Assembly: GCA_918797485.1 (NCBI GenBank)
Contig: CAKKNE010000005.1
Coordinates: forward strand, 558,001-622,000
DNA: 64,000 bases
Source: Pelagomonas calceolata
Taxonomy: Eukaryota
Direction of reading: 5' to 3'
The notes beneath the pieces are model-generated. The model searched no databases and was not told the DNA's origin. It saw nothing but the letters and a program-made list of their open reading frames with translations. Position 1 is the first letter of the stretch. The number at the start of each line of letters is the position of its first letter. Made by a program: the position numbers and the translations under genes. Positions 49,389-52,736 of the stretch are shown here, piece after piece.

Positions 49389-52300
49389 ATGGGCGCGGGC
49401 GTCTCGACGGAAGGCGCCCCCCTCACTAGAATCAAATGCAAAAACAACCTCGGCGTGCTGTTTGACCCCAAGGCCGAGGAGGCATTCCGTGCCGCCGCGA
49501 CCGGTCCGGAAGACGAGCTCAGCGTGCCCTGGCCCGAAGTCGACGCGTACGTCAAGACGCGCGACGAGCGTTGGCGCGACCCGAAGCACGTCTTGTTCCA
49601 GAACCTGAAACAATTTAGGGTTGCTCGGGTCGAGATCGAGAAAATTGCGGACGAGATGATTCAAGGCACAATCAATGAGATCCCGTGGCGCAGCGGCGAC
49701 GAGTGCCAACAGCGCGGCCTCGACGGCAAGCCGACAGCGTCGCTCGACCCGCTGTACGAGATCGCCGCGATGGCGCGCGAGGTCTACGCCGAAGTTATGA
49801 ATGACGTGTGCGAGGGCGGTCCGCCCCTGAATCTGGCACCGCTGAAGGGCCGCGCGCGAGCCGAGGTGAAAGCGCAGAACGAGTACAACAACAAGACGGC
49901 GCCGTGCTACTCGTGGCTCTTCGACATCGTGCGAGGCTTCGTGTATTGCGACCACGAGGACGAACTGGTCGCGCTCTGGCATAAGATCGAGGCGGACCCG
50001 CGCATGAAAATTGTTCGAACGAAAAATCGTTTCAATCCCCCTCTGTTCAACGGCTACCGCGACATCATGATGAACGTCGCGGTGAAGGTCGAGAATGTTT
50101 CGCACCTCTGCGAGCTGCAGATCCACTTGACGGCGATCAAGGACTCTGAGCCGATGCACAAGAGCCACGCCGTCTACGAGTTCTTTCGAGATTTCTTTAA
50201 GGGAAACGCCGAGGCGGTCGAGCAGCGGCTGGACATGTTCTGTGCGCTGCCGGTCGACGACGTTAACGATGCGGAAGAGCTGGTGGACGTCGTACTTGAC
50301 TCTGCGACGAGTTACGGGCAGCTCTACAGTCTCTGCGATCTGCTCAAGTCGATTCAGGAGTCCGCGGGCGTCGTGAAGGTCCGGAAAGCTATCCTAACGG
50401 TGCAGGAGCGAAGGTTTGGTGCGGAGAGCAAGGAGGTGGGCGCGGCGCTGTTTGATCTTGGGAACGCGTACATGGGCCTCGGCGACCACGCCAAGCAACG
50501 CGACGTGCTGGAGCGCACGTTGGCGATCGCGGAGCGCGAGCACGGTAAAGATAGTACGAACGTGGCCGGCTTGTTGAATAATCTCGGGACCGCGTACGGC
50601 AACTTGGGTGACTACGCGAGGACGCGAGACGTGCTGGAGCGCACGTTGGCGATCGCGGAGCGCGAGTACGGTAGCGATCACACAGAGGTTGCCATCGTGC
50701 TGACGAACCTCGGGGTCGCGTACGGCTATTTGGGCGACGACGCGAAGAAGCGAGACGTGCTGGAGCGCTCGCTCGCGATCAACGAGCGGGTGTACGGCCG
50801 CGACCACACGAGCGTGGCCGCCACGCTGACGAACCTCGGGTGCGCGTACGGCGACTTGGGCGACCACGCGAAGAAGCAAGACATGCTGGAGCGCGCGCTC
50901 GCGATCAAGGAGCGGGCGTACGGCCGCGACCACCCGCAAGTCGCCATCACGCTGGAAAACCTCGGGGCCGCGTACGGCCAATTAGGCGACCACGCCAAGG
51001 CGCGAGACATGATGGAGCGCGCGCTCGCGATCCAGGAGCGGGCGTACGGCCCCGAACATCAAATGACCCAACGAGTCCGAGCTTGCCTCGACGTTGTGCA
51101 AGCCGATTTAAAGTTTCCGCTGCACGCTGCGACAAAGAGAGGCGACCTCGATGCGATGACGCGGCTCCTGGACGAGGGCGCCGCGGTAGATACTAAGCTA
51201 AACGGCAAGACACCGTTGTATTTTGCGTGCGAGAAGGGCCACGTCGACGCGGTGCGGCTATGCCTGGACAACGGCGCAGAGGTCGACCAGGCGGGTGAGG
51301 ACGGCTATACGCCGCTGATGATCGCCTGCTGGAACGGCCACGTCGACGCGGTGCGGCTGTTGCTGGACAACGGCGCGGAGGTCGACCGGGCGGATAAGGA
51401 CGGTCGGACGCCGCTATGGACAGCATGCTACGAGGGCAACGTCGACGCGATGCGGCTGTTGCTGGACAACGGCGCAGAGGTCGACCAGGCGAATAAGTAC
51501 GGTGTGACGCCGCTGTACATCGCCTGCTCGAAGGGCCACGTCGATGCGGCGCGACTATTGCTGGACAACGGCGCGGAGGTCGACCGGGCGGATAAGGACG
51601 GTCGGACGCCGTTGATGATCGCCTGCATGTTCGGCCACGTCGACGCGGCGCGGCTGTTGCTGGACAACGGCGCGGAGGTCGACCGGGCGACGGAGGACGG
51701 TGCGACGCCGCTGATGATCGCCTGCTCGAAGGGCCACGTCGACGTGGCGCGGCTGTTGCTGGACAATGGCGCGGAGGTCGACCGGGCGACGGAGGACGGT
51801 GCGACGCCGCTGATGATCGCCTGCTCGAAGGGCCACGTCGACGTGGCGCGGCTGTTGTTAGATAAAGGCGCGGAGGTCGATCGGGCGAAGAACAACGGCT
51901 GTACGCCGCTGTTTGTTGCCTGCCACTCTGGCCACGTCGACGCGGCGCGGCTGCTACTGGAGAAAGGCGCGGAGGTTGACCGGGCGGACGAGGAGGGTCG
52001 GACGCCGCTGTTTGTTGCCTGCTGGGAGGGCCACGTCGACGTGGCGCGGCTGTTGTTAGATAAAGGCGCGGAGGTCGATCGGGCGAAGAACAACGGCTGT
52101 ACGCCGCTGATGATCGCCTGCCACTCTGGCCACGTCGACGCGGCGCGGCTGTTGCTGGACAACGGCGCGGAGGTCGACCGGGCGACGGAGGACGGTCGGA
52201 CGCCGCTATGGACAGCATGCTACGAGGGCAACGTCGACGCGGTGCGGCTGCTACTGGAGAAAGGCGCGGAGGTTGACCGGGCGGACGAGGAGGGTCAGAC

Positions 52301-52736
52301 GCCGCTGTTTGTTGCCTGCTGGGAGGGCCACGTCGACGCGGCGCGGCTGTTGCTGGACAACGGCGCGGAGGTCGACCGGGCAGACAATGATGGTGAGACA
52401 CCACTGTCAATCGCGAAAAGCGAAGATTACTCGTCCATCGTCGCGCTGCTCGAGGAGCATATTAACCCGCTGCACGCGGCGGCCAAGACCGGCGATATCG
52501 ACGCGATGACGCAGCTCCTGAACGACGGCGCCGAGGTCGACCGGGCGAATGAGAAGGGCAGGACGCCGCTATGGATCGCCTGCCTAAAAGGCCACGTCGA
52601 CGCGGCGCGGCTGTTGCTGGACAAAGGCGCGGACGGCAATCGGACCTTGGAGAACGGCGAGACGCCGCTGTGCGTCGCAAAAAGAAAAGGCCACGCGGCC
52701 GTCGTCGCATTGCTCGAGGAGGTGCGGGAAGCTTAA
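49389..52736 (+). CDS. RelA/SpoT-like nucleotidyltransferase + TPR array + ankyrin arrays
   Basis: MGAGVS; LKGRARAEVK, DIVRG, KNRF, NGYRD, ELQIH; about 5 42-aa TPR repeats; 17 ankyrin repeats. Confidence 0.85.
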   Translation: MGAGVSTEGAPLTRIKCKNNLGVLFDPKAEEAFRAAATGPEDELSVPWPEVDAYVKTRDERWRDPKHVLFQNLKQFRVARVEIEKIADEMIQGTINEIPWRSGDECQQRGLDGKPTASLDPLYEIAAMAREVYAEVMNDVCEGGPPLNLAPLKGRARAEVKAQNEYNNKTAPCYSWLFDIVRGFVYCDHEDELVALWHKIEADPRMKIVRTKNRFNPPLFNGYRDIMMNVAVKVENVSHLCELQIHLTAIKDSEPMHKSHAVYEFFRDFFKGNAEAVEQRLDMFCALPVDDVNDAEELVDVVLDSATSYGQLYSLCDLLKSIQESAGVVKVRKAILTVQERRFGAESKEVGAALFDLGNAYMGLGDHAKQRDVLERTLAIAEREHGKDSTNVAGLLNNLGTAYGNLGDYARTRDVLERTLAIAEREYGSDHTEVAIVLTNLGVAYGYLGDDAKKRDVLERSLAINERVYGRDHTSVAATLTNLGCAYGDLGDHAKKQDMLERALAIKERAYGRDHPQVAITLENLGAAYGQLGDHAKARDMMERALAIQERAYGPEHQMTQRVRACLDVVQADLKFPLHAATKRGDLDAMTRLLDEGAAVDTKLNGKTPLYFACEKGHVDAVRLCLDNGAEVDQAGEDGYTPLMIACWNGHVDAVRLLLDNGAEVDRADKDGRTPLWTACYEGNVDAMRLLLDNGAEVDQANKYGVTPLYIACSKGHVDAARLLLDNGAEVDRADKDGRTPLMIACMFGHVDAARLLLDNGAEVDRATEDGATPLMIACSKGHVDVARLLLDNGAEVDRATEDGATPLMIACSKGHVDVARLLLDKGAEVDRAKNNGCTPLFVACHSGHVDAARLLLEKGAEVDRADEEGRTPLFVACWEGHVDVARLLLDKGAEVDRAKNNGCTPLMIACHSGHVDAARLLLDNGAEVDRATEDGRTPLWTACYEGNVDAVRLLLEKGAEVDRADEEGQTPLFVACWEGHVDAARLLLDNGAEVDRADNDGETPLSIAKSEDYSSIVALLEEHINPLHAAAKTGDIDAMTQLLNDGAEVDRANEKGRTPLWIACLKGHVDAARLLLDKGADGNRTLENGETPLCVAKRKGHAAVVALLEEVREA

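What the first reader, a model, noticed from the sequence alone, without database searches (positions are those of the whole stretch)
51115..52730. Mosaic, DARPin-like hypervariable ankyrin array built from shuffled 99-bp units
The scaffold (GHVDAARLLLDNGAEVDRA) is almost invariant at DNA level. Variation sits at the hairpin and helix-1 binding-surface positions (DKDGR/TEDGA/KNNGC/DEEGR; WTACYEG/MIACSKG/FVACHSG/FVACWEG/MIACMFG). Units are chimeric: repeat 12 = TEDG (7/8) + RTPLWTACYEGNVDA (4) + EKG (9), and repeat 11 = repeat 9 with the MI of repeats 6-8. This suggests ongoing intragenic recombination that generates binding specificities.
Basis: partly seen in the sequence, partly recalled or inferred. 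Interest (0 to 1): 0.72.

Follow-up and report, generated by a model that had tools for sequence, protein, structure and literature searches.

The report
Alarmone-enzyme gene with shuffled ankyrin sensor
An algal gene joins a predicted alarmone-synthetase-like enzyme to two repeat arrays, and its ankyrin repeats are a patchwork of copied pieces that vary mainly on the predicted binding face; it likely acts as a fast-changing sensor that would switch the enzyme on when it meets a foreign protein, much as some fungal immune receptors do.

Summary
The array is real and mosaic. It ends a 1,115-aa gene (49389-52736, +) of a probable pelagophyte alga; RNA reads cover the gene and no splice joint was listed.

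Eleven core units are 90% identical in the scaffold and 32% on the binding face; 0 of 47 control arrays match this. Recombination is clear (PHI-type p ≤ 1.5e-4), but the exact copied tracts are 53-90 bp and cross unit borders, so whole units are not what is shuffled. Replacement changes on the face exceed a neutral simulation (p 0.007-0.02).

A syntenic ortholog carries three unrelated ankyrins plus extra TPRs, so the array turned over between the two lineages. Ongoing shuffling was not shown.

The same repeat regime is published for fungal NLRs. What appears new is a NOD-less version in a unicellular alga, on a large, apparently undescribed synthetase-TPR family with a remodelled active site. 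An immune function is inferred, not tested.

The parts
49389..52736 (+). Whole gene: 1,115-aa ORF, synthetase-like domain + 5 TPR + ankyrin cassettes; transcribed on the + strand, no splice joint listed
   Evidence: raw polyA reads in all 30 bins, first mate on - strand
49389..49406 (+). MGxxxS start (N-myristoylation-like; label recalled)
   Evidence: 23 of 28 homologs begin MGxxx[ST]
49701..50258 (+). RelA/SpoT small-alarmone-synthetase-like domain (about aa 105-290): K153, R157, K161, D179, R182, G222-Y223, D225, E242, Q244
   Evidence: AF2 pLDDT 84.8; Foldseek RelP E 1.6e-6; VIA Z 13.0 RelQ, 12.5 Tas1, 11.8 CapRel; conservation; Pfam RelA_SpoT only 16.9 bits, below cut-off 27
50427..51056 (+). 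Five 42-aa (126-bp) TPRs, most variable at columns 6, 13 and 17, also 3, 9, 24, 35
51114..51281 (+). Ankyrin N-cap and divergent unit 1; the N-cap is kept in ortholog L001
51282..52370 (+). Eleven mosaic 99-bp core ankyrin units; variable columns 5, 6, 7, 9 (hairpin) and 13, 14, 17, 18 (inner helix)
51669..51758 (+). 90-bp tract identical to 51768-51857 (longest exact repeat)
51829..51911 (+). 83-bp tract (unit 7 tail + unit 8 head) identical to 52027-52109; crosses a unit border
51397..51449 (+). 53-bp tract (WTACYEGN module) identical to 52189-52241, eight units away
51947..51999 (+). 53-bp tract (unit 8 tail + unit 9 head) identical to 52244-52296
52371..52463 (+). C-cap of the first cassette; part of it is shared with a more highly expressed other gene
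   Evidence: loose ends at 52428 and 52460, about 170 reads
52464..52733 (+). Second mini-cassette: N-cap (16 of 75 nt differ from the first), one unit, C-cap

Best explanation
This is a transcribed algal gene whose ankyrin array is a recombination mosaic with a conserved scaffold and a variable predicted binding face, attached behind TPRs to a predicted RelA/SpoT-type synthetase, and it likely works as a sensor-effector in biotic conflict. Shown: the mosaic structure, the scaffold/face contrast, turnover of the array against the ortholog, the architecture, and conservation of the predicted catalytic residues. Inferred, repeat dynamics: gene conversion and unequal crossover start in the near-identical scaffold stretches, copy 50-90-bp tracts within the array and probably from other loci, keep the scaffold uniform and recombine hairpin and helix modules, while selection favours new face residues. 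Inferred, function: the protein is probably myristoylated and cytosolic, the repeats would bind a fast-changing foreign protein (most plausibly viral or from an intracellular parasite), and binding would release the synthetase to transfer pyrophosphate from ATP to a nucleotide or RNA acceptor, giving a signal or growth arrest.
For: Incompatible informative-site pairs 42%, with far fewer among neighbours than in permutations (p 5e-5 to 1.5e-4; codon-block p 1e-4). Conflicting private sharing: (8,10), (3,11), (8,11), (7,9), (9,12). Face omega about 1.6-2.1 against array-wide synonymous change, scaffold 0.15-0.21; neutral-face simulations with GC bias give p 0.007-0.02, and synonymous change on the face is at or near the simulated level (6.5 versus 4.4-6.4). 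Syntenic ortholog L001 has synthetase dS 0.37 and omega 0.20, yet three unrelated ankyrins, six TPRs before them and three after. The same scaffold sits on NACHT-WD, kinase, U-box, RING and WWE proteins; 62 units in 24 of 208 proteins vary at the same columns, and none shares a hairpin or helix allele with this array. P0070 combines NACHT, the same synthetase (29%, E 9e-15), WD40 and this ankyrin cassette. The fold matches SAS enzymes, including the conflict enzymes Tas1 and CapRel. 66 of 69 longer family members carry TPRs. Precedent: fungal NLR ankyrin and TPR arrays (PMC4986451, passages).
Against: No ligand, phenotype or infection-induced expression is known. Within the face codons alone, omega is mostly not significant (p 0.04-0.5), three of nine face columns were chosen after seeing the data, and the simulation had no recombination. 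No repeat-number difference in the ankyrin array was shown between strains; raw reads gave no joints. The ortholog has a 1-bp frameshift in the synthetase, so the locus may be dispensable or in decay there. The active site departs from SAS: by motif spacing the two adenine-binding arginines fall on P151 and F184, and 0 of 149 relatives have GYRSxH, so the chemistry may differ. No NOD domain is present. In Podospora, different repeat combinations can give the same specificity (PMC12222747, abstract).
Confidence: 0.55

Rival explanations
1. Mechanical turnover without adaptive meaning. A GC-rich multi-copy ankyrin cassette was appended to a synthetase-TPR gene and is homogenised by conversion; purifying selection keeps the fold, and the surface positions drift because they are the tolerant ones in any ankyrin.
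For: Face columns vary in ordinary ankyrin arrays too (median face identity 0.26). Within-class omega is mostly not significant. Most synthetase-TPR relatives lack ankyrins (2 of 28 carry them). The ortholog is frameshifted.
Against: Neutral-face simulations give 14-21 replacement steps against 32.5 observed (p 0.007-0.02). The ORF is intact over 1,115 codons and transcribed. The TPRs show the same face-restricted variation.
Confidence: 0.25
2. A housekeeping or stress-signalling enzyme whose repeats bind host partners; the mosaic is a by-product of one past expansion and was then fixed.
For: The synthetase is under purifying selection (omega 0.20). The top fold matches are the housekeeping RelQ and RelP. 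Ankyrin expansion in Bathycoccus has been linked to cold adaptation (PMC11409870, passages). Listed pieces of four contig runs match the window.
Against: Both repeat arrays were rebuilt between two lineages whose flanking genes are 88-95% identical in protein, which fits poorly with a stable host partner. The family is multi-copy and domain-shuffled.
Confidence: 0.14
3. The unit order is an assembly artefact made from paralogous reads.
For: Many similar units exist in the same runs (summed contig depth up to about 55 times single copy). Short-read assemblies of such arrays are unreliable in Podospora (PMC12222747, abstract).
Against: Reads are longer than the longest exact repeat; 389 of 410 are 99% or more alike; no joint was listed. 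Contigs over the twice-present modules have about double depth (19 versus 8-13 in X11). The frame is intact and the flanks are syntenic with L001.
Confidence: 0.04

Closest known systems
Fungal NLRs with high-internal-conservation ANK/TPR/WD repeats (Podospora Pa_3_8560, het-e/het-d; PMC4986451, PMC12222747)
   Same: Near-identical repeats, variable and selected sites on the hairpin and inner helix, repeat exchange, an enzyme as N-terminal effector. RelA_SpoT is listed there among fungal NLR N-terminal domains.
   Different: No NACHT/NB-ARC in this protein; TPR and ankyrin arrays in tandem; unicellular marine alga; strain polymorphism of the ankyrin array not shown here.
Ectocarpus ROCO-LRR and NB-ARC-TPR candidate receptors (PMC3341825, abstract)
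   Same: Stramenopile alga, shuffled repeats under diversifying selection, immune role proposed but untested.
   Different: There each repeat is an exon; here the array is one uninterrupted ORF and the tracts ignore unit borders; ankyrin rather than LRR; a different effector.
Small alarmone synthetases and toxSAS: RelP/RelQ, Tas1, FaRel2, CapRel (PMC9712102, PMC11782079)
   Same: Fold (Z 11.5-13), Lys/Asp/Tyr/Glu-x-Gln catalytic positions; CapRel is a synthetase fused to a variable C-terminal sensor that detects a phage capsid protein.
   Different: 12-18% identity; DxxR and GYxD in place of DxxGxR and GYRSxH; repeats instead of a pseudo-zinc finger; eukaryotic with a myristoylation-like start; activity untested.
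Eukaryotic divergent SAS, divRel (PMC3153485)
   Same: Synthetase-only RSH noted in diatoms, fungi and Dictyostelium.
   Different: The paper has no occurrence of 'TPR'; the family found here has 1,367 representatives at 50% identity.
DARPins (engineered)
   Same: Fixed ankyrin framework between caps, with a variable concave surface.
   Different: Natural and recombination-made. Five of six library positions (numbering recalled) vary; one is invariant, and columns 5, 13 and 14 vary in addition.

Membership tests
NLR / STAND receptor | Central NACHT or NB-ARC domain | tested here: not met
   No such Pfam match in the ORF; a relative, P0070, has one
NLR / STAND receptor | C-terminal superstructure repeats and N-terminal effector | tested here: met
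   TPR + ankyrin behind a synthetase fold
High-internal-conservation repeat domain (PMC4986451) | 85% or more identity over 100 or more aa | tested here: met
   Own identity-to-consensus measure, not T-REKS: 0.894 for units 4-7 (132 aa), 0.855 for units 2-6; only 0.818 for all 11
High-internal-conservation repeat domain (PMC4986451) | Exchange between repeats | tested here: met
High-internal-conservation repeat domain (PMC4986451) | Positive selection on the concave face | tested here: inconclusive
   p 0.007-0.02 by simulation, p 0.005-0.07 against all synonymous sites, mostly not significant within the class
High-internal-conservation repeat domain (PMC4986451) | Repeat-number polymorphism among strains | tested here: inconclusive
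   Run X12 lacks one TPR, but an artefact is possible; ankyrin number cannot be read from contigs. Differs between lineages (L001).
Small alarmone synthetase (RSH SYNTH) | SYNTH fold | tested here: met
   Z 13.0, rmsd 4.6, 154 aligned (5dec); Z 11.8, rmsd 2.6, 134 aligned (7ztb); first unrelated polymerase Z 7.7
Small alarmone synthetase (RSH SYNTH) | Catalytic Asp, G-loop Tyr, ExQ, basic helix lysines | tested here: met
   D179 27 of 28 (one gap); K153, K161, Y223, E242, Q244 28 of 28; aligned to RelP
Small alarmone synthetase (RSH SYNTH) | Two adenine-binding arginines (FaRel2 R64, R95) and GYRSxH | tested here: not met
   P151 and F184 at those places by motif spacing; invariant R157 and R182 lie nearby; GYRSxH in 0 of 149, GYxD in 116 of 149
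Small alarmone synthetase (RSH SYNTH) | Pyrophosphate transfer from ATP | not testable with these tools
   needs an assay
Ectocarpus-type exon shuffling | One repeat per exon | tested here: not met
   Continuous ORF; no splice joint in raw reads

The most novel reading that the evidence does not exclude
Pelagophyte algae run a genome-wide, recombination-fed library of ankyrin and TPR binders plugged onto effector enzymes. This gene is a eukaryotic counterpart of CapRel: its shuffled repeats detect a viral protein and release a remodelled alarmone synthetase that modifies a nucleotide or tRNA and halts the infected cell. That would be RSH-based antiviral immunity in the cytosol of eukaryotic phytoplankton.
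Probability: 0.2. Interest if true: 0.88.

Novelty: new variant of a known kind. Interest (0 to 1): 0.57.

Why it matters
How eukaryotic picophytoplankton recognise viruses is largely open (own knowledge). This locus offers a concrete candidate with a recombining sensor and an enzyme that can be assayed in vitro. The synthetase-TPR family is large (1,367 representatives; named members from Aureococcus and the diatom Cylindrotheca), sits mostly below the Pfam RelA_SpoT threshold (8 of 69 match at E ≤ 1e-4) and has an altered active site, so its product could be a new nucleotide signal or RNA modification. The array alone is a known evolutionary regime in a new lineage.

Tried and rejected
No whole genome is held, so paralogs could not be counted directly. 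The exact protein is not in the 15-billion collection.

The search with the whole ankyrin region was swamped by long generic arrays; only the candidates sharing most words were scored. Those hits were reused as the control set.

Viral contigs: no relative of the synthetase in two scans and no exact match to a scaffold pattern. Prokaryote genomes gave one weak relative, L002. The ESM Atlas gave only unnamed or TPR clusters at 0.88-0.90. No earlier findings.

Laying reads at 88% mostly drew paralogs, so its differences and joints were not read as alleles. Of 24 listed runs, 7 were laid.

The X12 differences were not accepted as a proven second allele. They are: one TPR skipped at 50501-50628, two substitutions, a 2-bp loss at 51147, and no cover over about 49420-50090. 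The skip runs through a 39-bp exact repeat that an assembler can cross, and the run shows indels typical of noisy reads.

Exon shuffling and whole-unit shuffling were rejected. A plastid RSH was considered unlikely because the start is MGxxxS-type and no hydrolase domain was found. No complex prediction was run.
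Full report
Context. The window is eukaryotic: 58-70% GC per 2 kb, with OTU-, VPS9/EH- and nitroreductase-family genes nearby. The closest named homologs of the gene are from Aureococcus anophagefferens at 50-53% identity, so a pelagophyte is likely. Pelagomonas calceolata has 63% GC (PMC9481584, passages); the species is my inference, not a result. The array is the C-terminal half of one ORF, 49389-52736 (+), 1,115 aa.

The observation. There are 11 core 99-bp units (51282-52370) between caps, plus a second short cassette. Variation falls on columns 5, 6, 7, 9, 13, 14, 17 and 18, counting the T of TPL as column 10. 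These are the hairpin and inner helix, the binding face as described in PMC4986451 (passages). Pairwise amino-acid identity is 0.90 in the scaffold and 0.32 on the face. Of 120 long ankyrin proteins, 47 had six or more units in register and none matched this; those proteins were chosen by similarity to the query. The scaffold is not invariant in DNA: 8 of 33 codons are invariant, with at least 16 synonymous changes.

Recombination. Of 37 informative sites, 42% of pairs are incompatible with one tree, and neighbouring sites are far more compatible than permuted ones (p 5e-5 to 1.5e-4; 1e-4 with codons kept whole). Eight exact in-register tracts of 53-90 bp were found, and seven cross a unit border. 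Unit 11 shares six private bases with unit 3, three with unit 8, and its hairpin with units 6 and 7. This is patchwork copying, consistent with gene conversion or unequal crossover, and not shuffling of whole units or exons.

Selection. Minimum-change counts give omega 0.15-0.21 for the scaffold and 1.6-2.1 for the face against all synonymous sites (p 0.005-0.07); within the face codons alone p is 0.04-0.5. Simulations with a neutral face, no recombination and three GC biases (300 runs each) give 14-21 replacement steps against 32.5 observed, p 0.007-0.017. For six DARPin positions fixed beforehand (numbering recalled), p is 0.01-0.02. I take this as moderate evidence. Columns 5, 13 and 14 were added after seeing the data.

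Is it real, and is it ongoing? Of 24 listed runs I laid seven. At 98% likeness, raw polyA reads of X21 (about 6% of the run read) cover all 30 bins on the sense strand, with no other letters and no joints. A joint needs three reads and depth is about 4-24, so rare variants would be missed. The longest listed contig pieces of X5, X9, X7 and X11 match with 0-1 differences, apart from a few pieces with 14-24 differences that look like paralogs; these runs may all be one strain. X12 differs (one TPR skipped, two substitutions, small indels, a gap over the synthetase), but an artefact cannot be excluded. Ongoing shuffling of the ankyrins is therefore not shown.

Turnover between lineages. A pattern scan of metagenome contigs gave one locus, L001 (JACLAA010000357.1), syntenic on both sides at 80-87% nucleotide identity. 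Flanking genes are 88-95% identical in protein with dS 0.14-0.81; the synthetase part is 87% identical with dS 0.37. L001 keeps the N-cap but has three different ankyrins, six TPRs before them and three after. The third ankyrin runs into a TPR at a 10-nt stretch common to both repeat types, and a C-cap remnant lies behind the stop. Both arrays were thus rebuilt since the split. L001 also has a 1-bp frameshift in a T run in the synthetase, real or an assembly error.

A shared cassette. At 88% likeness, many other contigs and reads of the same runs fit the units (summed depth is no copy number). Among 208 fetched proteins, 24 hold 62 units with at least 20 of 24 scaffold residues shared; that filter makes the scaffold look conserved by design. 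They vary at the same columns and share no hairpin or helix allele with this array. Their other domains include NACHT-WD40, kinase, U-box, RING and WWE. P0070 joins NACHT, the same synthetase, WD40 and this cassette. The five TPRs of the window, pooled with seven from L001, show the same pattern of fixed scaffold and variable columns.

The enzyme. Residues 1-344 were folded with a 28-sequence alignment (pLDDT 84.8). Foldseek and VIA-align rank small alarmone synthetases first: RelP E 1.6e-6; Z 13.0 RelQ, 12.5 Tas1, 11.8 CapRel, against 7.7 for the first polymerase. K153, R157, K161, Y223, E242 and Q244 are in 28 of 28 homologs, and D179 and R182 in 27. Against the FaRel2 residues listed in PMC11782079 (passages), and by motif spacing plus the RelP alignment, the catalytic Asp, G-loop Tyr and ExQ are kept, the two adenine-binding arginines are not in their usual places, and GYRSxH is replaced by GYxD (0 versus 116 of 149). 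The family has 1,367 representatives at E ≤ 0.001. Of 69 members chosen by length (480-1,100 aa) from the top 149, 66 carry TPRs and 8 match RelA_SpoT. Names found among ten looked up are Aureococcus and Cylindrotheca. 23 of 28 close homologs start MGxxx[ST].

Mechanism. Shown: mosaic array, face-restricted variation, turnover, architecture, conserved catalytic positions, transcription. [quoted passage not shown] I put this at 0.55, neutral turnover at 0.25, a housekeeping role at 0.14 and an artefact at 0.04.

What is known. Conserved ankyrin and TPR arrays with repeat-number polymorphism and selection on the concave face are described for fungal NLRs, and RelA_SpoT is among their N-terminal domains (PMC4986451, passages). 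Shuffled LRR and TPR exons are described in Ectocarpus (PMC3341825, abstract and outline). Divergent SAS in diatoms were noted in PMC3153485 (passages). Searches listed no paper on this family or on such arrays in pelagophytes. The pelagophyte pangenome preprint has no 'TPR' or 'NACHT' (passages) and no 'ankyrin' (listing); PMC9481584 has no 'ankyrin'. The library lacks most subscription papers and I read no supplements, where such families could be listed. Also seen: 10.1101/2022.03.16.484565, PMC11409870, PMC8683736 and PMC8229355 (passages), PMC12222747 (abstract and outline).

Verdict. A real and unusually clean natural mosaic ankyrin array; not an NLR by definition, but built and evolving like the sensor of one; a new variant of a known kind. 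Its main added value is the uncharacterised synthetase it is attached to. Interest 0.57.

Noticed in passing
window 49326-49413: 88 bp of 5' leader plus the first codons (MGAGVSTE) are shared, with one difference, by another gene seen in four runs; the myristoylation-like start may itself be a mobile module.
   Followed up: no
window 52428-52460: About 170 raw reads share only this C-cap stretch and continue into another gene, which is more highly expressed than this one.
   Followed up: no
window 49768-50352: Low antisense read depth (up to about 3) over the synthetase domain only.
   Followed up: no
L001 6360-6390 and 6939-6969: Ankyrin-to-TPR fusion at a 10-nt stretch shared by both repeat types, and a stranded ankyrin C-cap remnant behind the stop codon.
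   Followed up: partly
L001 about 4970-4980: 1-bp frameshift in a T run in the ortholog's synthetase domain.
   Followed up: partly
L002 2695-3375: Stand-alone 226-aa RelA_SpoT-like protein with GYxD and HLCELQIH in a Planctomycetota MAG contig, a possible bacterial relative of the algal domain.
   Followed up: partly
P0002, P0070, P0202: P0002 appears to carry a second, more divergent synthetase-like domain at its C-terminus; P0070 has one inserted within its NACHT region; P0202 joins part of one directly to the ankyrin cassette.
   Followed up: partly
window 34177-34347 and 35925-36071: Two 75-bp (25-aa) tandem repeats that resemble DUF285/BspA-like surface repeats (label recalled).
   Followed up: no
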